Positions 7,550 to 18,305 are shown, counted from the stretch's first letter. The stretch is DNA of 64,000 nucleotides from Candidatus Vogelbacteria bacterium (GCA_903878275.1 CAIRHC010000006.1:15633-79632); one strand, 5' to 3'. Translations and numbers: made by a program. Notes: a model not told the origin generated them from the sequence alone.

Positions 7550-10500
7550 ATGTTCAAGAAAATAAAGAAGTTCTTTTTCGGCTCCAAAAAAGACTTGTCG
7601 CACAAGGCGAGCTTGTTATTAGTGTTAGCCTTAGTCGTAGGCGGTTTTTTGTTTGGCTTTGGAGCTGTGTCTGCTAATGATTCAGATTCTAGCTTGAGTG
7701 TTTTAACTGTGAGTTCTGGCACACTGGTACCAGGTTTTGATTCAACTGTGTTCAATTATAATGTGGAACTACCTTTTGGAGTATCACTTGTTCCAACTGT
7801 GACGGCGACAGCTACTGATGCAAGCTCAACACCTGTTGTAACTGATGCCACCAGTATTCCTGGAACAACTAGCATAGAGGTCACAGCTTGGGATAGTTCT
7901 ACCTCTACATATCTTGTTAATTTTACCAACGCCCCTGACACAGAAAATCCAACTTTCCTAATAAATGGTACAACATCAATTTCTTCTTATAATTCTTCAA
8001 ATATTCCCTTGAATATTACTTTTGCTGATAATGATTCTGCTACAGGGACAATCAACGGAATGCCTATAACTTCTCCTTACGCAACTAGTTCCGACGGCTC
8101 CTATGTGCTTATCATATCTGATCCTTCTGGTAATGAAGCTTCAACGACTTTTTCGATTCATCTTTCTTCGATTGTGGTGAGTGGTGTGTCCGAAGGGTCT
8201 TTGTATGGTACCAGTTCTGTTCCGGTAACAATTACTTTTTCTGATAATAGTGGTACTAGTACCCTAACAGCTTTGTTGGACGGGACTCCGTTTTCGTACG
8301 GTGATTCTACTAGTGCTGACGGTCATCACACTTTGATTGTCAGTGATCCTTGGGGTAATTCTACAACTACAAATTTTACGATTGATACAACTCCGCCGGT
8401 GTTTGATCCTATTGTAGATCAATCTTTTGAAGCAGTTGCTTCGACTTCTTCATATAGCTTAACTCTCGCTACTGCTCTAGATGCTTTGAGCGCCCTTAAT
8501 CCAATTTCTTATCTGCCAAACATTTTTCCATTAGGAACAACAACCGTAACATGGACTGCGTCTGATGTCCTTGGAAATACTTCTACGGCAACTTCAAGTG
8601 TTGGAATTGTTGATACAACCGCGCCGGTTATTACTTCTCACTCTGATGTGATTGCCGAAGCTACAAGCGCTAGCGGTGCAACTGTTACTTATACCCCCCC
8701 CTCTGCCACTGATTTGGTTAGTGGAACTGTTTCTGTTGGCTGCGCCTCGTCTTCTGGCTCGCTTTTCCCAATTGGCACGACGACAGTTAATTGTCTTGCG
8801 ATCGATGATTATGCAAATTCAGCCACTTCCTCATTCGATGTGATTGTCCAAGATACTATTGCCCCGACTACTACGGCAACAGCTATTACTTCTGGCGCTT
8901 ACACTTTTGACACCTGGACCAGTAGTGATGTGACTGTCACCTTAAACGCGACCGACACGGCTTCGGGAGTTGATAAAATTTATTATTCAACCTCCACACC
9001 AGAATCTTTTGTGGAATATTCCACTCCTTTTACAATAACGACCGAAGGTACAACAACCGTTAAATTTTACGGCATTGACGTGGCAGGTAATCTCGAAGCG
9101 ACAAGTACGGTTTTAGTGAAGATTGATAAGACAGCTCCATCAAAACCATCGACCATGTCTATAAACGGTGGCGTTAGTCCATACGCTTCAAGCTCTACTG
9201 TTACTTTGGACATTAATTTGCCAACAGATGCCACCTCTGGTTTGCTGTGGATGCAAATAGCTAATCATAATTCTTATCACGCCACAGAGACACCTGCGAT
9301 GTCTAGAACCAGTTGGGTTTTATCTGCCGGCGATGGTTCAAAAGATGTGAAAGTTCGGTTTTATGACTTGGCGAACAACGTTTCTTCAACTTCTGATTTT
9401 TCTTATATTACTCTTGATACTCATGCTCCAACCGTTGCAACGACAACCATTACTCCATCCTATGTTGGAACTAGCACTTACATAACCAATACCTCTAACA
9501 TTGCAGCTGCCGTTAATGACAATAATGGCTCTATTACACCTGTTTCTGGTATTGATTCTGCTACTTGTGAATATACTCTTGATAATGGTTCCAATTGGGT
9601 TTTGGCTGATTACGATGGAACCAGATGTTACAAAGATGGTGTTTCCACTTCCGGAGCTACTCATATTGGTTTCCGAGTTAAAGATAACGCTGGTAATCAA
9701 TGGGTAGGTGTAGTTACTCCGGTTTTTGTCGATTCGACAAGCCCTTCGGTTGCAAATATTACCATCACGCCGTCTTATAGCACTTCGACCGAGACATACA
9801 TAAAAGACTTGTCCGATCTTTCGGCTTCTACAACAGACGCTGGTTCTGGTATAGACACTTGTGAATATACGATTAATAACGGCTCTAATTGGGTTTTAGC
9901 TGATTATAATCCAGCCAATTCAACTTGTTATAAAAATGGGGTGGCAACTATTGGTGCGACGTTTGTAAATTTCCGAGCTACCGACCATATCGGCAATCTG
10001 CCGGCAATTGGGACACCTGTTAGTGTAACTCTGGATGTTACCTCGCCAACCCTTGGTTCTCTTGATGTGGCAAATACTCACCATACGACCGGAGGTGTTA
10101 CTTATATCACCGTATTGTCTGATCTAATTTCTTCTGTTATTGATGGCGGTTCTGATGTCAAAAATTGTCGTTTTGGAACGGAAGTGGGAGGAATTCCGAC
10201 TTGGACAATGGCAACCTCAACTTTAAGTGGAAATTGTATTTGGACTGGTCTTGATACTTCTAATTCTGCAATTAGCAAAATTTGGGTGGAAGCGAGTGAT
10301 AATTTAGACAATGTTTCTTCGACCAGCACGATGGTTTTTCTTGATACTTCAGCTCCAACTACTACTGCTTCGGCTGGTACTTATACTTTTGGCAACTGGA
10401 CGAACCAAGACGTAAGCGTAACTTTAATCGCCGATGATGGAGCTGGGAGTGGGGTGGCAAACATTAATTATGTCGAAGATGGAGCGGCAACAACTAGCTA

Positions 10501-11173
10501 CACCGGAGTACCAGTAATCTTTAACACAGAAGGTGTTCATACTTTAGATTTTTACAGTGTTGATAATCTTGGTAATTTAGAAAGTGTTGGAACTGTTACC
10601 GTAAAAATTAACAAAACCAAACCGGTAATCACTTTAAGTGGCGATAGCGAAGTGACGCTTGAGTATGGTGCGACCTACGTTGATTCAGGTGCTTCTTCGA
10701 CCGATGATATTGCTGGTGATATTTCGGCAAATATCGTGACAGATAATCCCGTCAATACAAATACCGCTGGGGTTTATTATGTAAAATACAATGTGACTGA
10801 TTCGGCAGGGAATATGGCTGATGAAGTGTCCAGAAAAGTAACCGTAAATTCAGCTCCTCATCATGGTGGCAGCGGCTACGCCATTCCTCTTATCGGCAAA
10901 GTCCTTGGTGAAAATACTGATAAGGCTAAAGAATTGGCTCTAAAGCGAATGCAAGCTCGACGAATGGCACTTTTGCGACGACAATTGGCTTTGCTTCGAC
11001 AACAATTGCGTGATTTACAGAATCCGCCAGCACCCGAAGTAAATACCGTTCCGCTACAAGAAGAGATTACTGTACCGACAACTACCGATGAAGTTGTACC
11101 AACAACAACTGTTGATGTGACAGCCCCTCCGGTCGTAGAACCAGAGAAGAAACCATTTTGGAAGTTTTGGTAA
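7550..11173 (+). CDS. giant Ser/Thr-rich cell-surface protein with HYR-like and Ig-like (DUF5011-like, CHB_HEX_C-like) repeat domains
   Basis: N-terminal signal/TM segment (LLLVLALVVGGFLFGFGAVSA). Repeated TxTWTASDxxGNxxTATSSVxIVDTTAPV (HYR-like) and NATDTASGVDKIYYS...VKFYGIDVAGNLE modules. C-terminal DSEVTLEYGATYVDSGASSTDDIAGDIS...YYVKYNVTDSAGN (DUF5011-like), then a coiled-coil/Pro-rich tail. Confidence 0.7.
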   Translation: MFKKIKKFFFGSKKDLSHKASLLLVLALVVGGFLFGFGAVSANDSDSSLSVLTVSSGTLVPGFDSTVFNYNVELPFGVSLVPTVTATATDASSTPVVTDATSIPGTTSIEVTAWDSSTSTYLVNFTNAPDTENPTFLINGTTSISSYNSSNIPLNITFADNDSATGTINGMPITSPYATSSDGSYVLIISDPSGNEASTTFSIHLSSIVVSGVSEGSLYGTSSVPVTITFSDNSGTSTLTALLDGTPFSYGDSTSADGHHTLIVSDPWGNSTTTNFTIDTTPPVFDPIVDQSFEAVASTSSYSLTLATALDALSALNPISYLPNIFPLGTTTVTWTASDVLGNTSTATSSVGIVDTTAPVITSHSDVIAEATSASGATVTYTPPSATDLVSGTVSVGCASSSGSLFPIGTTTVNCLAIDDYANSATSSFDVIVQDTIAPTTTATAITSGAYTFDTWTSSDVTVTLNATDTASGVDKIYYSTSTPESFVEYSTPFTITTEGTTTVKFYGIDVAGNLEATSTVLVKIDKTAPSKPSTMSINGGVSPYASSSTVTLDINLPTDATSGLLWMQIANHNSYHATETPAMSRTSWVLSAGDGSKDVKVRFYDLANNVSSTSDFSYITLDTHAPTVATTTITPSYVGTSTYITNTSNIAAAVNDNNGSITPVSGIDSATCEYTLDNGSNWVLADYDGTRCYKDGVSTSGATHIGFRVKDNAGNQWVGVVTPVFVDSTSPSVANITITPSYSTSTETYIKDLSDLSASTTDAGSGIDTCEYTINNGSNWVLADYNPANSTCYKNGVATIGATFVNFRATDHIGNLPAIGTPVSVTLDVTSPTLGSLDVANTHHTTGGVTYITVLSDLISSVIDGGSDVKNCRFGTEVGGIPTWTMATSTLSGNCIWTGLDTSNSAISKIWVEASDNLDNVSSTSTMVFLDTSAPTTTASAGTYTFGNWTNQDVSVTLIADDGAGSGVANINYVEDGAATTSYTGVPVIFNTEGVHTLDFYSVDNLGNLESVGTVTVKINKTKPVITLSGDSEVTLEYGATYVDSGASSTDDIAGDISANIVTDNPVNTNTAGVYYVKYNVTDSAGNMADEVSRKVTVNSAPHHGGSGYAIPLIGKVLGENTDKAKELALKRMQARRMALLRRQLALLRQQLRDLQNPPAPEVNTVPLQEEITVPTTTDEVVPTTTVDVTAPPVVEPEKKPFWKFW

Positions 11174-14911: not shown

Positions 14912-15017
14912 TCCAACCTTTTTAGTTTTTACTTTTGATTCGGGCTACTGAAAAGTAGCCCGATTTTGCCTTTTTATGAATAATTGAAATTTCTAATTTT
15001 TGTGTTAAAGTATTTAT

Positions 15018-18000
15018 ATGAAAAAGAACTCTAAAGCTGATTATTATAATCATCTAAAAATTGAGAAAAAATGGCAAAAATTTTGGGCGGACAAAAAAAT
15101 TTATAAAACTACCGACGATACGAGCAAGCCGAAATCTTATGTTCTCGATATGTTTCCTTATCCTTCGGGCGAAGGTTTGCACGTCGGTCATCCAAAAGGT
15201 TATATCGCGACCGATATCTACTCGCGCTTTAAGCGAATGAATGGCTACAATGTCTTACATCCGATGGGCTGGGACGCTTTTGGTTTGCCGGCGGAAAATT
15301 ATGCGATAAAAAATAAGGTCAATCCGGAAATTGCGGTCAAAAAAAATATTAAATATTTCAAATCACAATTAGAAAAAATCGGTTTTGATTATGATTGGAC
15401 GCACGAAATAAATACCACTGATCCAAAATATTATAAATGGACGCAGTGGATTTTTTTGCAAATGTTTAAAAAAGGTTTGGCTTACGAATCGTGGGAGCCA
15501 ATCAATTGGTGTCCTTCGTGCCAAACTGGTCTCGCCAACGAAGATGTGGAAGATGGAAAATGCGAACGTTGTGATTCGGTTGTCGTAAAAAAACCGATGC
15601 GTCAATGGGTATTAAAAATTACCGATTACGCCGATCGCTTATTGAAAGATCTTGATAATTTAAATTGGCCGGAATCAATCAAAGAATCACAGCGCAACTG
15701 GATCGGGCGAAGCGAAGGCTCGGAAATAAATTTTGATATTAATAAAAAATATAAATTTGTTTTACTTCACGGCTGGAAAAGTACTGGCAAAGATTGTTTT
15801 TTGCCGTGGCTGAAAGCAGAGTTAGAAAAAAGAGGTCACGAAGTGGTGGCACCTGATATGCCTCACCCTTTTTTGCCGGATGTGGTGGAACAGGCGCGTT
15901 TTGTTTTGGATAAAATAAAATTTGATGAAAATACGATTTTGCTTGGGCATAGTCTCGGCTCGGTGGTTTCTTTGCGTATTCTTGAACAATTAAAAACACC
16001 AATAAAAAAATTGATTTTGGTCGCTGGCCTGATGGAGCCGAAATTTAAAGACAAGGAGCGAATGATGGCGAAGTATTTGATGAGTTGGAAATTTAATTTT
16101 GATAAAATCAAAAAAAATGCTGGCGAAGTAGTTTTACTGGAAGACACAAACGATGTTTTGATTCCATCTGGCGAAGCTGATACTTTGCAAGCTCATCTTG
16201 GCGGTTCGGTTTTTAAACTCGAGGCTGAAAAATCACATTTTTGTGGCCGAGTTGAACCAACAGTGCTAGAGCATTGTACTGATCAGATTAAAATTTTTAC
16301 GACGCGAGCCGACACACTTTTTGGCGCGACTTATTTAGTTTTGGCACCAGAACATTTGTTAATTAAAAAATACGAAAATCAAATTGAAAATATTAAAGAG
16401 GTTAAAAAATATGTAGGACTAGCAAAAAAGAAAAATGAAATTGAAAGAACGGCGGAAGATAAAACCAAAACTGGTGTCGAACTAAAAGGTTTGAAAGCGA
16501 TTAATCCGACAAACGGCAAAGAAATTCCGATTTGGGTCGCCGATTATGTTTTACCCGATTATGGCACTGGTGCGATTATGGCGGTGCCAGCCCACGACTT
16601 GCGCGATTGGCAATTTGCCAAAAAATTTAATTTGCCGATTGAAACGGTTATTCATCCGACCGACACCGCTAAAACTTTGTTTATTATCGAAAGTTTGGCT
16701 GATGGTTGGGCAGAAGAATTTAAAAAAGTTGGTGCCAAAATTGAACCGTGGGAAGATTGGGGTGTGATTTTGCGTTTTCCCGCCAAAATGATTGATAAAG
16801 TTGCTTCGCTTGGTCAAAAATTACTCAAAGAGGGAAATTGGTATTTTGAAATCAACGGAGCCAAAAATCTGATTATTTTTAAGCAAGCGATTTTTGATTT
16901 AAACAAAGGTGAAAGTGAAAAGGCGAAAATTTACGGACGCAAGGTCGGCGTAGCAGAAGCGCAACTTGATTGGGACAAAAATCCTAATCCAGAATTATAC
17001 ACTGGCAAAGGCACCTTGATTTACTCGGGTATTTTTTCGGGTATCTCCAGCGAAAAAGCTATTCCCGCTATTACCAAATTTGTCCGCGGAAAAATTGCGG
17101 TCAAATATAAATTGCGTGATTGGGTTTTTTCTCGACAGCGATATTGGGGTGAGCCAATTCCAATTATTCATTGCGAAAAATGTGCCTTAAATAATCCGGC
17201 GGGGCGAGGCATTGTGTCAGTACCAGAAAAAGATCTGCCGGTAGTTTTGCCGAAAGTGAAGAGCTATGCGCCGACCGGGACCGGAGAATCGCCCCTGGCT
17301 GACATTAAAAGCTGGGTCAATGTCAAATGCCCGGTTTGTGGCGATAAAGCCAAACGAGAGACAAACACAATGCCTCAATGGGCGGGTTCATCTTGGTACT
17401 ATTTACGCTATATCGATCCGCACAATAACAAAGAATTAGCGTCTCATTCAAAATTGGATTACTGGTTAAATAATGGTGTTGATATGTATGTCGGGGGGAC
17501 CGAACACGCCACTCGCCATCTTATTTATGCGCGTTTTTGGCATAAGTTTTTGTTTGATTTGGATGTGGTCAAAGCTTCGGAACCATTTCAACAATTGAAA
17601 AATCAAGGTTTAATTCTTGGCTCTGATAGTCGTAAAATGAGTAAGCGTTGGGGTAATGTTGTTAATCCAGATGAGGTCGTCAAAAATTACGGCGCGGATA
17701 CATTACGCGTTTATGAAATGTTTATGGGACCGTTTGAGCAAAGTGCGACTTGGAGTACTGACAATATGATTGGTTCGCGTCGATTTATCGAGCGAATCTG
17801 GCGCTTGGCGAGCAAAGTCGGCAAAAAAACTGATCAGGTTAATCCCGAATTAGAAATTTTATTTAATAAAACTATCAAAAAAATTGGTGAGGATATTGAT
17901 AATTTTTCTTTCAACACCGCCATTTCGGCATTGATGATTTTGACTAATTCTCTCGAAAAAGAAGCGGGGATTAGCCCGGAAAAATGGGCGGATTTGTTGC

Positions 18001-18305
18001 GTATTCTCGCGCCATTTACACCACATTTGGCGGAAGAATTATGGCAAAAAGCGGGCTATAAAAAGTCGATTATTTTGGAACGATGGCCAGCTTATGATAG
18101 TGCCAAATTGGTTTCGGCGAAGGCGATTATTGCGGTGCAGGTCAACGGAAAAGTTCGTGGCGAAATTGAAATTTCCAACGAAATGGACGAATCAGCCGTG
18201 GTAAAAATTGCAATTGAAAATGAAATTATCAAAAAATGGTTGATCGGACAAAAAGTTAAAAAGACTGTGTATGTGAAGGGTCGATTGCTAAATTTTGTGG
18301 TGTAG
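15018..18305 (+). CDS. leuS: leucyl-tRNA synthetase carrying an inserted alpha/beta serine-hydrolase domain
   Basis: PYPSGEGLHVGH (HIGH), MGWDAFGLPAE, TTRADTLFGATYLVLAPEH and GTGAIMAVPAHDLRD (CP1 editing), KMSKRWGN (KMSKS). About 180 extra aa (KFVLLHGWKSTGKD...GHSLGS...) lie between the catalytic core and CP1. Confidence 0.9.
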   Translation: MKKNSKADYYNHLKIEKKWQKFWADKKIYKTTDDTSKPKSYVLDMFPYPSGEGLHVGHPKGYIATDIYSRFKRMNGYNVLHPMGWDAFGLPAENYAIKNKVNPEIAVKKNIKYFKSQLEKIGFDYDWTHEINTTDPKYYKWTQWIFLQMFKKGLAYESWEPINWCPSCQTGLANEDVEDGKCERCDSVVVKKPMRQWVLKITDYADRLLKDLDNLNWPESIKESQRNWIGRSEGSEINFDINKKYKFVLLHGWKSTGKDCFLPWLKAELEKRGHEVVAPDMPHPFLPDVVEQARFVLDKIKFDENTILLGHSLGSVVSLRILEQLKTPIKKLILVAGLMEPKFKDKERMMAKYLMSWKFNFDKIKKNAGEVVLLEDTNDVLIPSGEADTLQAHLGGSVFKLEAEKSHFCGRVEPTVLEHCTDQIKIFTTRADTLFGATYLVLAPEHLLIKKYENQIENIKEVKKYVGLAKKKNEIERTAEDKTKTGVELKGLKAINPTNGKEIPIWVADYVLPDYGTGAIMAVPAHDLRDWQFAKKFNLPIETVIHPTDTAKTLFIIESLADGWAEEFKKVGAKIEPWEDWGVILRFPAKMIDKVASLGQKLLKEGNWYFEINGAKNLIIFKQAIFDLNKGESEKAKIYGRKVGVAEAQLDWDKNPNPELYTGKGTLIYSGIFSGISSEKAIPAITKFVRGKIAVKYKLRDWVFSRQRYWGEPIPIIHCEKCALNNPAGRGIVSVPEKDLPVVLPKVKSYAPTGTGESPLADIKSWVNVKCPVCGDKAKRETNTMPQWAGSSWYYLRYIDPHNNKELASHSKLDYWLNNGVDMYVGGTEHATRHLIYARFWHKFLFDLDVVKASEPFQQLKNQGLILGSDSRKMSKRWGNVVNPDEVVKNYGADTLRVYEMFMGPFEQSATWSTDNMIGSRRFIERIWRLASKVGKKTDQVNPELEILFNKTIKKIGEDIDNFSFNTAISALMILTNSLEKEAGISPEKWADLLRILAPFTPHLAEELWQKAGYKKSIILERWPAYDSAKLVSAKAIIAVQVNGKVRGEIEISNEMDESAVVKIAIENEIIKKWLIGQKVKKTVYVKGRLLNFVV

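What the first reader, a model, noticed from the sequence alone, without database searches (positions are those of the whole stretch)
15747..16289. About 180-aa alpha/beta serine-hydrolase (YdeN/RBBP9-like) domain inserted into LeuRS between the catalytic core and the CP1 editing domain
LeuRS is 1095 aa against the usual about 820-860. Right after NWIGRSEGSEINFDI, where E. coli goes almost directly into TTRPDT, this ORF inserts KFVLLHGWKSTGKD...GHEVVAPD...LLGHSLGSVVSL...VVLLEDTNDVLIPS (GHSLG nucleophile elbow). It then resumes with TTRADTLFGATYLVLAPEH. A second hydrolase fold placed beside the editing site of a synthetase is unusual and could be a novel proofreading or deacylase module. No intein motifs are present.
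Basis: partly seen in the sequence, partly recalled or inferred. Interest (0 to 1): 0.6.

Follow-up and report, generated by a model that had tools for sequence, protein, structure and literature searches.

The report
Serine hydrolase nested inside LeuRS
The leucyl-tRNA synthetase of this candidate-phyla-radiation bacterium really carries an intact small serine hydrolase inside its proofreading domain; this layout is common in that bacterial group, appears in no paper I could find, and its function is untested.

Summary
ORF 15018-18305 is an uninterrupted 1095-aa bacterial-type LeuRS. Residues about 247-421 form a YdeN/RBBP9-family (PF06821) alpha/beta serine hydrolase with an intact Ser312-Asp379-His407 triad. 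The domain sits at the tip of the first beta-hairpin of the CP1 editing domain, 6 residues before the TTRADT editing motif.

It is not a chimera. Of the 120 closest LeuRS clusters in public data (all Patescibacteria/CPR), 104 carry the domain at this site, 6 carry it downstream of CP1 and 10 lack it. The CP1 editing motifs stay intact.

The insert belongs to a distinct subfamily (Q292/D376/E413 plus an EPxFxDxxR loop). This subfamily is also nested in IleRS, ValRS, AlaRS, Fmt-like, TsaD, Der and SecA proteins. In one close relative it is a separate gene 48 nt upstream of LeuRS.

The most likely function is an autonomous hydrolase of hydrophobic alpha-aminoacyl esters, thioesters or amides, by analogy with RBBP9. 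That would link it to synthetase by-products or quality control. A strictly cis second tRNA-editing site is possible but disfavoured by the variable insertion positions. No paper describing this architecture was found.

The parts
15018..18305 (+). Complete LeuRS gene (1095 aa), the host of the insertion
   Evidence: ORF list. TIGR00396 leuS_bact scores 994.6 bits against a cut-off of 548.4. T. thermophilus LeuRS 1h3n matches at E 2e-204. It is 100% identical to database protein P0018.
15756..16280 (+). Nested YdeN/RBBP9-type alpha/beta serine hydrolase domain (residues about 247-421)
   Evidence: PF06821 40 bits, PF00561 41 bits. PDB 1uxo and 2qs9 at E about 1e-10. pLDDT 91-97 in the full-length model. 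Foldseek TM 0.86 to 1uxo. Boundaries set against unfused relatives.
15945..15959 (+). Nucleophile elbow G310-H-S312-L-G314 (Ser312 codon at 15951-15953)
   Evidence: Read directly from the sequence. Ser is present in 148 of 149 fused and 74 of 77 stand-alone homologues. It aligns with RBBP9 Ser75.
16143..16154 (+). Acid loop D376-T-N-D379. Asp379 aligns with RBBP9 Asp138. Asp376 is specific to the nested subfamily.
   Evidence: Position 379 is D in 94 and E in 42 of 149 fused sequences, and D in 76 of 77 stand-alone ones. Position 376 is D in 133 of 149 fused sequences but S in the classic stand-alone type.
16236..16238 (+). Catalytic His407
   Evidence: His is present in 149 of 149 fused and 75 of 77 stand-alone homologues.
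16035..16061 (+). Subfamily-specific loop E340-P-K-F-K-D345-K-E347-R348. It aligns with the RBBP9 loop that holds Glu108, the alpha-amine anchor.
   Evidence: P341, F343, D345 and R348 are conserved in fused forms, and the loop is deleted in the classic stand-alone type. The role of Glu108 is from PMC8866121.
15708..15740 (+). CP1 hairpin strand 1 (residues 231-241, RSEGSEINFDI), leading into the insert
   Evidence: AF2 secondary structure shows strand E231-241. It aligns with T. thermophilus residues up to 238.
16284..16316 (+). CP1 hairpin strand 2 and the Thr-rich editing motif (IKIF-TTRADT, residues 423-433)
   Evidence: AF2 shows strand E423-428. It aligns with T. thermophilus R242-T252. 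The TTRxDT motif is kept in nearly all fused homologues.
16590..16607 (+). CP1 editing motif AHDLRD (residues 525-530; equivalents of E. coli D342 and D345)
   Evidence: Alignment with T. thermophilus LeuRS. The motif is kept in nearly all homologues.
16656..16985 (+). Second insertion in CP1 (residues about 547-656), an orphan module of unknown fold
   Evidence: There is a gap against T. thermophilus residues 363-373. No Pfam hit. No homologue outside LeuRS. No PDB hit. pLDDT 37-74. Not related to NUDIX by hhalign. Relatives carry a NUDIX domain or nothing at this site.
15180..15191 (+). HIGH signature (HVGH, residues 55-58)
   Evidence: Read directly from the translation. Invariant in alignment A2.
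17634..17648 (+). KMSKS signature (KMSKR, residues 873-877)
   Evidence: Motif scan.
14940..15011 (+). Terminator-like hairpin of the upstream gene (14940-14963) and a promoter-like site (14984-15011) just before the LeuRS start codon. The scan found no signals beyond chance within the gene.
   Evidence: Consensus scan. These are consensus matches only, and the counts are not above the shuffled background.

Best explanation
Anatomy (shown). The window's LeuRS is a normal bacterial-type synthetase. Its HIGH and KMSKS signatures and its CP1 editing motifs are intact. A complete 175-aa YdeN/RBBP9-family serine hydrolase is nested at the tip of the first CP1 beta-hairpin. The hydrolase has a full Ser312-Asp379-His407 triad and a confidently predicted alpha/beta fold.

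Distribution (shown). This is an old, inherited architecture typical of Paceibacteria-type CPR bacteria. The insert belongs to a specialised subfamily, marked by Q292, D376, E413 and the loop E-P-x-F-x-D-x-x-R. That subfamily lives mainly nested inside housekeeping proteins that handle tRNA or aminoacyl-tRNA.

Mechanism (inferred). The domain most likely works as an autonomous catalytic module. Ser312 would attack the carbonyl of a hydrophobic alpha-aminoacyl compound that has a free alpha-amine, forming an aminoacyl-enzyme that is then hydrolysed, as in RBBP9. The residues aligned with RBBP9's side-chain cage are aliphatic or aromatic here (L338, F343, L381, I382). An acidic loop residue (E347 or D345) aligns with the RBBP9 amine anchor Glu108.

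Likely role (inferred). The physiological role is probably tied to the host synthetase's chemistry. Candidate substrates are stray or wrong aminoacyl esters or thioesters, for example homocysteine thiolactone or aminoacyl thioesters, which class Ia synthetases produce. Another possibility is the release of hydrophobic amino acids from peptides. It is less likely to act as a second tRNA-editing pocket positioned precisely next to CP1.
For: Fold and family.

Catalytic residues under purifying selection: Ser in 148 of 149, His in 149 of 149 and the acid in 136 of 149 fused sequences. This holds although mean pairwise identity of the domain is only 43%.

Not an artefact, and typical of the lineage: 104 of 120 closest LeuRS clusters have it at the same site, and they come from NCBI, JGI, ENA and Logan assemblies. 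A scan of GTDB species genomes found 21 loci. Twenty are labelled Patescibacteria; one MAG is labelled Gammaproteobacteria, possibly mis-binned.

Subfamily signature: it is shared by nested copies in every host and by about 11 stand-alone cluster representatives.

Host range: LeuRS dominates (44+ of the 150 best cluster representatives). Other hosts are IleRS (Saccharibacteria; inserted at ileS profile position about 210/211, the entry to CP1), ValRS, AlaRS, an Fmt-like protein and TsaD. So 6 of 8 host families act on tRNA or aminoacyl-tRNA.

Autonomy of the module:
- It occurs at three or more positions in LeuRS, and the copies downstream of CP1 form their own sequence cluster.
- In L001-L003 it is a separate 185-aa gene 48 nt upstream of LeuRS. 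That gene's nearest relatives are nested copies at 66-75% identity.
- It is absent from the syntenic relative L027.

Chemistry by homology:
- RBBP9 forms acyl-enzyme adducts with Leu/Ile, Met, Phe, Tyr and Trp, needs a free alpha-amine, and has a cage of Y99, L103, F140 and L141 with Glu108 as amine anchor (PMC8866121).
- RBBP9 also activates the valyl ester valacyclovir (Shenoy 2020, as cited in PMC7730578).
- MetRS, ValRS, IleRS, LeuRS and LysRS edit homocysteine (PMC5370406).
- Another valacyclovir-hydrolysing alpha/beta hydrolase, BPHL, is an efficient homocysteine thiolactonase (PMC4198189).
Against: - No activity has been measured for any member of this subfamily. B. subtilis YdeN itself has no known substrate.
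- The mapping of substrate-binding residues rests on a pairwise alignment at about 24% identity in loop regions. E347 itself is not conserved across the family (E in 26 and P in 32 of 149 sequences), although D345 is.
- The hosts SecA and Der do not fit a role tied to aminoacylation.
- The classic type of this family is fused to adenylate kinase, flavokinase, a methyltransferase and NUDIX, so the family forms fusions readily.
- LeuRS in this clade also hosts NUDIX, HAD, an IS200-like domain and orphan modules. CP1 may simply tolerate insertions.
- No MetRS host was seen, although MetRS is cited as a generator of homocysteine thiolactone (abstract of PMC6378604).
- The host census covers only the best 150 cluster representatives.
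Confidence: 0.45

Rival explanations
1. Second cis-acting post-transfer editing site. The hydrolase would receive the 3' end of mischarged tRNA-Leu next to the CP1 pocket and deacylate a class of errors that CP1 handles poorly.
For: - The insert ends 6 residues before the Thr-rich editing motif.
- In Saccharibacteria IleRS the same subfamily sits at the equivalent entry to CP1.
- Ester hydrolysis of an aminoacyl group with a free alpha-amine is the chemistry of RBBP9.
- The hosts LeuRS, IleRS, ValRS and AlaRS all have editing functions, and Fmt binds the acceptor end of an aminoacyl-tRNA.
Against: - The position in LeuRS is not fixed. Six of the 120 best hits, and several other cluster representatives, carry the domain downstream of CP1 or after a NUDIX domain.
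- It functions as a separate gene in L001 and is missing in L027.
- CP1 keeps TTRxDT and AHDxRD, so a second site would be redundant.
- The domain carries no positive charge excess; its mean net charge is -2.5.
- A pocket that accepts Leu-like side chains beside the synthetic site would risk a futile cycle.
Confidence: 0.15
2. Hitch-hiking housekeeping esterase with no mechanistic link to aminoacylation. In streamlined CPR genomes, small hydrolase genes become nested in large essential proteins that tolerate insertions. This secures their expression and retention. The substrate would be unrelated to aminoacyl compounds.
For: - Many kinds of guest domain occur in the same LeuRS region: NUDIX, HAD, an IS200-like Y1 domain and orphan modules. 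IleRS also carries an LMW-PTP/ArsC-like domain.
- This hydrolase has diverse hosts, including SecA and Der.
- The family fuses end to end with ADK, flavokinase and a methyltransferase.
- A close relative has lost it with no visible change in LeuRS.
Against: - Six of eight host families handle tRNA or aminoacyl-tRNA, which is well above what their share of a small genome would predict. This enrichment is my inference.
- The only characterised family member acts on hydrophobic aminoacyl groups, which matches the LeuRS/IleRS/ValRS hosts.
- The domain has been retained at one site across a large clade with an invariant triad.
Confidence: 0.25
3. Non-catalytic structural or binding domain: a pseudo-enzyme used as a spacer, an interaction surface or a tRNA contact.
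For: RBBP9 was first described as a protein-binding factor (background in PMC7730578). The domain evolves faster than the LeuRS core, at 43% against 64% mean pairwise identity.
Against: Ser312, His407 and the acid residue are conserved at 91-100% across 149 diverged nested copies. That level of conservation is not expected for a pseudo-enzyme.
Confidence: 0.03
4. Artefact or separate element: an assembly chimera, a frameshifted separate gene, an intein or a recent mobile insertion.
For: In L001-L003 the homologous hydrolase is a separate gene next to LeuRS. That could suggest a mis-join in the window.
Against: - The reading frame is uninterrupted.
- The same in-frame junctions occur in more than 100 distinct clusters from independent assemblies.
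- GC content is flat across the junctions at 0.37-0.40.
- There are no terminal direct or inverted repeats beyond A/T-rich chance matches.
- There is no Hint or intein Pfam hit, and the junction residues K246|F247 and T421|D422 lack the splicing nucleophiles and the HN motif.
- There are no internal promoter or terminator signals above background.
Confidence: 0.01

Closest known systems
Bacillus subtilis YdeN (PDB 1uxo), founding bacterial member of Pfam PF06821 (Ser_hydrolase)
   Same: It has the same minimal alpha/beta hydrolase fold of about 180 aa without a cap (TM 0.86, rmsd 2.4 A). It has the same GHSxG elbow and the same Asp and His positions. phmmer gives E 1.3e-10.
   Different: YdeN is a stand-alone protein of unknown function. 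It has W, S and F where the nested subfamily has Q292, D376 and E413, and it lacks the EPxFxDxxR loop. Identity is about 23%.
Human RBBP9 (PDB 2qs9, 7oex), a serine aminopeptidase and valacyclovir-activating esterase
   Same: Same family and fold (TM 0.81-0.84). The triad aligns: Ser75 with Ser312 and Asp138 with Asp379. A loop carrying an acidic residue followed by Arg (E108-R109) aligns with E347-R348. The hydrophobic cage positions are also hydrophobic here.
   Different: RBBP9 is a free eukaryotic protein that prefers aromatic residues. The cage here is aliphatic or Phe rather than Tyr or Phe. The Glu108 equivalent is not conserved across the nested family. No activity has been measured here.
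LeuRS CP1 editing domain (Pfam PF13603) and the other known editing or trans-editing folds (INS/YbaK, AlaX/second additional domain, Dtd, PheRS B3/B4; listed from established knowledge)
   Same: These are hydrolytic modules attached to or working with synthetases, and they cleave aminoacyl esters. The insert lies inside CP1, next to its Thr-rich motif.
   Different: The insert has an alpha/beta-hydrolase fold with a covalent Ser nucleophile. To my knowledge none of the known editing domains has this. CP1 here remains intact, and the insert's position varies among relatives.
Synthetases with embedded accessory enzymes, e.g. IleRS with an N-acetyltransferase domain (NCBIfam NF040702 ileS_w_GNAT)
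   Same: This is a precedent for a class Ia synthetase that carries an unrelated catalytic domain. The model is listed.
   Different: The guest fold and the site differ. The window protein scores only 74.5 bits against a cut-off of 1999 on that model, so it is not a member.
BPHL (valacyclovirase / homocysteine thiolactonase; PMC4198189)
   Same: It is an alpha/beta serine hydrolase acting on alpha-amino-acid esters and on the thiolactone produced by synthetase editing. It is a functional analogy for the clean-up model.
   Different: No specific homology was detected in the Pfam or PDB searches. BPHL is a larger hydrolase with a cap. The analogy is a lead, not a test.

Membership tests
Pfam PF06821 Ser_hydrolase (YdeN/RBBP9 family) | Profile HMM score above the curated gathering threshold | tested here: met
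   40.0 bits against a cut-off of 22 for the excised domain, and 34.8 bits in the full protein.
Pfam PF06821 Ser_hydrolase (YdeN/RBBP9 family) | Minimal alpha/beta-hydrolase fold of about 180 aa without a cap domain | tested here: met
   The AF2 domain model has pLDDT 89.1 and pTM 0.88. The best PDB matches are 1uxo (TM 0.86/0.84) and RBBP9 (TM 0.81-0.84). The next hits are at E 5e-8 with target TM of 0.59 or less.
Pfam PF06821 Ser_hydrolase (YdeN/RBBP9 family) | Catalytic triad: Ser in a GxSxG elbow, plus Asp and His | tested here: met
   G310-H-S312-L-G314, D379 and H407. Ser312 and Asp379 align with RBBP9 Ser75 and Asp138. His407 rests on its conservation, because the RBBP9 alignment stops before His165. 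The residues are conserved in 148, 136 and 149 of 149 nested homologues respectively.
Pfam PF06821 Ser_hydrolase (YdeN/RBBP9 family) | RBBP9-type substrate site: a hydrophobic S1 cage and an acidic anchor for a free alpha-amine | tested here: inconclusive
   The cage equivalents L338, F343, L381 and I382 are hydrophobic. E347-R348 aligns with E108-R109. However, E347 is variable across the family, while D345 is conserved. The alignment is at low identity and in loop regions.
Pfam PF06821 Ser_hydrolase (YdeN/RBBP9 family) | Measured serine-hydrolase activity | not testable with these tools
   This needs activity-based probe labelling or substrate assays.
Bacterial-type leucyl-tRNA synthetase (NCBIfam TIGR00396 leuS_bact) | Equivalog HMM score above the cut-off | tested here: met
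   994.6 bits against 548.4, matched in 4 stretches split by the two insertions.
Bacterial-type leucyl-tRNA synthetase (NCBIfam TIGR00396 leuS_bact) | Class I signatures HIGH and KMSKS | tested here: met
   HVGH at residues 55-58 and KMSKR at residues 873-877.
Bacterial-type leucyl-tRNA synthetase (NCBIfam TIGR00396 leuS_bact) | CP1 editing residues: the Thr-rich TTRPDT motif and the conserved Asp residues of AHDxRD | tested here: met
   TTRADT at 428-433 and AHDLRD at 525-530, aligned with T. thermophilus T247-T252 and the HDQRD motif.
Known aminoacyl-tRNA editing domains (CP1, INS/YbaK, AlaX/SAD, Dtd, B3/B4) | Homology or fold membership of the insert in one of these families | tested here: not met
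   The insert matches only alpha/beta-hydrolase families in Pfam, NCBIfam and the PDB.
Known aminoacyl-tRNA editing domains (CP1, INS/YbaK, AlaX/SAD, Dtd, B3/B4) | Deacylation of mischarged tRNA | not testable with these tools
   This needs deacylation assays with S312A and CP1-dead variants.
Inteins (Hint domain) | Hint-fold match, a Cys/Ser/Thr at the N-junction, and a C-terminal His-Asn followed by Cys/Ser/Thr | tested here: not met
   There is no Hint or intein Pfam hit. The junctions are K246|F247 and T421|D422. Positions 419-421 are not conserved across the family.

The most novel reading that the evidence does not exclude
The nested hydrolase would be the first alpha/beta-hydrolase-fold proofreading module of the translation apparatus, with a covalent Ser nucleophile. 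On this reading, CPR bacteria repeatedly recruited it into LeuRS, IleRS, ValRS and AlaRS to hydrolyse wrong aminoacyl products. Those products could be mischarged tRNA, or the aminoacyl thioesters and thiolactone that these enzymes generate. The NUDIX and HAD guests in the same enzymes would then form a built-in by-product clean-up kit.
Probability: 0.3. Interest if true: 0.85.

Novelty: new variant of a known kind. Interest (0 to 1): 0.62.

Why it matters
Synthetase editing has been studied for decades using a small set of folds. If a conserved, catalytically intact serine hydrolase nested in the editing domain of LeuRS (and of IleRS, ValRS and AlaRS) takes part in quality control or by-product detoxification, it would add a new chemistry to translational fidelity. 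It could also help explain how CPR bacteria, with their very small genomes, cope without many stand-alone repair enzymes.

Even if the domain is only a passenger, the data show that CP1 of class Ia synthetases in CPR is a hot spot where whole enzymes are nested, relocated, split off and lost. These include the alpha/beta hydrolase, NUDIX, HAD, an LMW-PTP-like domain and an IS200-like domain. That makes it a natural system for studying domain insertion.

There is also a practical annotation point. Several of these LeuRS genes are named 'alpha/beta fold hydrolase' in NCBI records. That could make LeuRS look absent from those genomes.

The question is directly testable, because nature provides fused, split and insert-free versions in one syntenic clade.

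Tried and rejected
1. Uniqueness. The first domain-only homology search returned only 17 stand-alone proteins and missed even the window's own protein. This briefly suggested a unique fusion. The full-length search and the exhaustive representative search corrected this.
2. Chimera, frameshift or separate gene. Rejected on the continuous ORF and on more than 100 independent assemblies with the same junctions.
3. Intein. Rejected.
4. Recent mobile insertion. There are no terminal repeats and no compositional break.
5. Insertion 2 as a degenerate NUDIX domain. hhalign gives a probability of 2% or less. It has no homologues outside LeuRS and no PDB match.
6. RNA-binding surface. The nested domains are slightly acidic, so this gives no support.
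7. General linkage of stand-alone YdeN-like genes to synthetase genes. The distant stand-alone homologues P0009 and P0006 are not next to LeuRS.
8. Alignment A3 was too diverse for the locus scan, so the narrower A4 was used.
10. Inter-domain geometry from the AF2 model could not be examined, because no coordinates are exposed.
11. Literature. Searches combining LeuRS or aaRS with CPR, Patescibacteria, Parcubacteria, NUDIX or hydrolase found no description of this architecture.
12. An Rfam scan of the locus found no leader RNA or T-box.
Full report
OBSERVATION. The window holds one uninterrupted ORF, 15018-18305 (+), of 1095 aa. It is a bacterial-type LeuRS: TIGR00396 scores 994.6 bits against a cut-off of 548.4, and T. 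thermophilus LeuRS matches at E 2e-204. The alignment with T. thermophilus breaks twice. Query residues 244-422 have no counterpart between T. thermophilus residues 238 and 242. Query residues 547-656 have none between residues 363 and 373. In the other direction, T. thermophilus residues 581-636, the leucine-specific domain, have no counterpart in the query.

Alone, it scores 40.0 bits on PF06821 Ser_hydrolase (cut-off 22) and 41.3 bits on PF00561. In the PDB it matches B. subtilis YdeN (1uxo, E 1.3e-10) and human RBBP9 (2qs9, E 3e-10). In an AF2 model of the whole protein (mean pLDDT 86.6, pTM 0.79), residues 246-418 have pLDDT 91-97. They sit between two strands, 231-241 and 423-428, which form the first CP1 hairpin. 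A separate model of the domain (pLDDT 89, pTM 0.88) superposes on 1uxo with TM 0.86 and rmsd 2.4 A, and on RBBP9 with TM 0.81-0.84. There is a wide gap to all other hydrolases. Close relatives that lack the insert read ...SEISFSVKAKDK|SEQVKVFTTRADT. This places the insert at about residues 247-421, window 15756-16280. GC content is flat across the junctions. No terminal repeats flank the insert, and there are no intein features. The site is more exactly inside CP1, at PF13603 model position about 17/18, six residues before the Thr-rich editing motif TTRADT.

HOW COMMON IT IS. A first search with the domain alone returned only stand-alone proteins of about 185 aa. This was a limitation of that tool. 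The full-length search found the window's own protein (P0018, 100% identical) and many relatives. Of the 120 best LeuRS clusters, 104 carry the hydrolase at exactly this site, ending at TTR[PA]DT. Six carry it downstream of CP1, and 10 lack it. Forty-nine also have an intact Nudix box. The names given by the sources are Paceibacterota/Parcubacteria, Vogelbacteria, Taylorbacteria, Kaiserbacteria and Woesebacteria, all of which belong to Patescibacteria (CPR). One such protein has been in UniProt since the 2015 groundwater genomes (UniRef100_A0A0G0RJC7). A scan of GTDB species genomes found 21 loci, and in all of them the domain is nested in a large ORF. Twenty of the records are labelled as Patescibacteria lineages; one MAG (L020) is labelled Gammaproteobacteria and may be mis-binned. 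An exhaustive HMMER search of 1.84 billion cluster representatives gave 1698 hits at E<=1e-3. Among the best 150, 44 or more are LeuRS, 86 are stand-alone and 15 have other hosts. The CP1 motifs TTRxDT and AHDxRD are retained in nearly all fused proteins. This rules out an assembly chimera or a frameshifted separate gene.

IS IT AN ACTIVE ENZYME? I aligned 149 nested and 77 stand-alone domains. The nucleophile Ser312 (in GHSLG) is present in 148 of 149 nested and 74 of 77 stand-alone copies. His407 is present in 149 of 149 and 75 of 77. The acid at position 379 is D or E in 136 of 149 nested copies and D in 76 of 77 stand-alone copies. Where position 379 is aromatic, in the copies downstream of CP1, D376 and D378 are present instead. 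The mean pairwise identity of the domain among site-A proteins is only 43%, against 64% for the LeuRS core. The invariance of the triad therefore reflects selection for catalysis.

A DISTINCT NESTED SUBFAMILY. Nested copies share Q292, D376 and E413, where YdeN, RBBP9 and the classic stand-alone proteins have W, S and F/L. They also share an extra loop, E340-P-x-F343-x-D345-x-x-R348, which is absent from the classic type. The same signature occurs in several other places:
- the LeuRS copies downstream of CP1;
- a ValRS (P0182), an AlaRS (P0206), a TsaD (P0177) and an Fmt-like protein (P0227);
- a Der/EngA GTPase (P0199) and a SecA (P0171);
- about 11 stand-alone cluster representatives.

In four Saccharibacteria genomes a domain of this kind (38-41% identical to the window's) is nested in IleRS together with an LMW-PTP/ArsC-like domain. 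I did not check the Q/D/E signature in these IleRS copies. The ileS profile resumes at position 211 right after the domain, which is again the entry to CP1. Nearest-neighbour analysis shows that the LeuRS copies downstream of CP1 form one cluster and the IleRS copies another. The stand-alone forms carrying the signature are closest to LeuRS site-A copies. Classic-type members are fused end to end to adenylate kinase, flavokinase, a methyltransferase and NUDIX.

A NATURAL EXPERIMENT. Three states occur within one syntenic clade, in which LeuRS is followed by a Sigma70_r4/HARE-HTH protein, a DUF8128-like protein, YceG and, in the window, L027 and L028, MnmA (L001 ends before these last two genes).
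- (a) Fused: the window.
- (b) Split: in L001, L002 and L003, from three independent samples, a 185-aa hydrolase gene (P0001) lies 48 nt upstream of an 817-aa LeuRS. P0001 is 63-64% identical to the window's insert and carries the full nested-type signature.
- (c) Absent: L027 (P0068, 809 aa) has neither a nested nor a neighbouring hydrolase in the fetched 10 kb.

P0001's nearest relatives are nested copies at 66-75% identity. The split state is therefore best read as a secondary fission. The LeuRS of the split state is 85% identical to the window's in the N-terminal core but only 40% identical in CP1. Its Thr-rich motif reads YDSIPQT, while HDERD is kept. So the hydrolase can work in trans and can be lost, and it is not needed for LeuRS to exist.

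WHAT IT PROBABLY DOES. The only characterised family member, RBBP9, forms an acyl-enzyme on Ser75 with Leu/Ile, Met, Phe, Tyr or Trp. It needs a free alpha-amine, which is held by Glu108. It holds the side chain in a cage of Y99, L103, F140 and L141. Its authors conclude that it cleaves amide, ester or thioester bonds to hydrophobic amino acids (PMC8866121). It also hydrolyses the valyl ester valacyclovir (Shenoy 2020, as cited in PMC7730578). In the HMMER alignment these positions map to L338, K342/F343, L381 and I382, all hydrophobic and conserved as such. Glu108-Arg109 maps to E347-R348 in the subfamily-specific loop. R348 and the nearby D345 are conserved, but E347 is not.

I therefore infer an alpha-aminoacyl hydrolase for hydrophobic residues. 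This matches the main hosts LeuRS, IleRS and ValRS. Those three synthetases, together with MetRS and LysRS, edit homocysteine (PMC5370406), which yields homocysteine thiolactone, and can form aminoacyl thioesters (from general knowledge of Jakubowski's work). Another alpha/beta hydrolase that cleaves valacyclovir, BPHL, is an efficient homocysteine thiolactonase (PMC4198189).

The insertion position varies, the module works in trans in L001, and it is dispensable in L027. For these reasons I favour an autonomous module acting on diffusible aminoacyl compounds, either for clean-up or for supplying amino acids from peptides. I favour this over a second tRNA-editing pocket coupled geometrically to CP1. 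The cis-editing idea is not excluded. The site is next to the Thr-rich motif, and the analogous site is used in IleRS. I could not measure the geometry, because model coordinates are not exposed.

The main rival is that the domain is a passenger with no mechanistic link. The LeuRS of this clade also hosts NUDIX (at the window's second insertion site, or upstream), HAD (P0131, L010), an IS200-like Y1 transposase domain (P0195) and orphan modules. The hydrolase also occurs in SecA and Der. Against pure hitch-hiking, 6 of 8 host families act on tRNA or aminoacyl-tRNA, and the predicted chemistry matches the hosts. All statements about function are inferences, and no assay exists for any member of the subfamily.

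THE SECOND INSERTION. Residues about 547-656 (window 16656-16985) interrupt CP1 after LPIETVI. This segment has no Pfam hit, no PDB hit and no homologue outside LeuRS. It has low model confidence, with pLDDT 37-74, and no detectable relation to NUDIX. At this same site, relatives have a short linker, a NUDIX domain of about 158 aa with an intact box, or a 128-aa module that may be distantly related to the window's (pairwise hhalign E 0.003).

KNOWN OR NEW. The architecture is present in public databases with automatic Pfam labels. Some of these LeuRS genes are even named 'alpha/beta fold hydrolase'. Seven literature searches found no description of it (searches covered the family's biochemistry). 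It is best classed as a new variant of a known kind: a synthetase carrying an accessory catalytic domain, of which NCBIfam's ileS_w_GNAT is a precedent. The guest fold is not among the known editing folds.

LIMITS.
- The host census covers only the best 150 cluster representatives and 21 genome loci.
- Organism names are MAG labels.
- The residue mapping to RBBP9 rests on about 24% identity.
- The relative orientation of the domains was not examined.

Noticed in passing
window 16656-16985 (LeuRS residues about 547-656): A second, orphan insertion of about 110 aa lies inside CP1. It has no Pfam, PDB or database homologue outside LeuRS, and AF2 confidence is low. At the same site relatives carry nothing, an intact NUDIX domain, or a 128-aa module.
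   Followed up: yes
window 17620-17640 region (LeuRS residues about 869-873): The leucine-specific domain (T. thermophilus residues 581-636) is absent. The chain runs almost directly from the catalytic core into KMSKR.
   Followed up: partly
L001:10001-13060 (also L002, L003): In a close relative the hydrolase is a separate 185-aa gene 48 nt upstream of an 817-aa LeuRS. That LeuRS has a core 85% identical to the window's, but its CP1 is only 40% identical and reads YDSIPQT in place of FTTRADT. This looks like a secondary fission, possibly coupled to remodelling of CP1.
   Followed up: partly
L027:4001-6430 (P0068): A syntenic relative has an 809-aa LeuRS with canonical CP1 and no hydrolase, either nested or nearby. 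The insert is therefore dispensable.
   Followed up: partly
L016, L021, L022, L023 (Saccharibacteria IleRS, 1360-1759 aa): These IleRS proteins carry an LMW-PTP/ArsC-like domain and a closely related hydrolase domain (38-41% identical to the window's) in tandem at the entry to CP1.
   Followed up: partly
P0195 (LeuRS, residues 269-374); P0131 and L010:4195-9360: An IS200-like Y1 transposase domain sits in frame at the same hairpin site of one LeuRS. Other LeuRS of up to 1722 aa carry two or three NUDIX domains plus a HAD phosphatase in addition to the hydrolase.
   Followed up: no
P0206, P0199, P0171, P0177, P0227, P0182: The same nested hydrolase subfamily occurs inside AlaRS, the Der/EngA GTPase, SecA, TsaD, an Fmt-like formyltransferase and ValRS.
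   Followed up: partly
P0030, P0073, P0105, P0117 (names listed): NCBI records name several of these LeuRS proteins 'alpha/beta fold hydrolase'. That could hide the LeuRS gene in genome annotations.
   Followed up: no
P0138, P0158 and similar: Some database proteins begin at the N-terminus of the hydrolase and continue through CP1 and the C-terminal half of LeuRS. They may be genuinely split LeuRS genes or broken gene calls. This is unresolved.
   Followed up: no
window 17184-17207 (LeuRS residues 723-730, ALNNPAGR): There is an eight-residue insertion after the HCEKC zinc-knuckle motif, relative to L001 and T. thermophilus LeuRS.
   Followed up: no
window 5801-11170: A large serine recombinase (Resolvase plus Recombinase domains, 519 aa) lies next to a 1207-aa surface protein with HYR and Ig-like domains. 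This may be a mobile or variable region upstream of the LeuRS neighbourhood.
   Followed up: no
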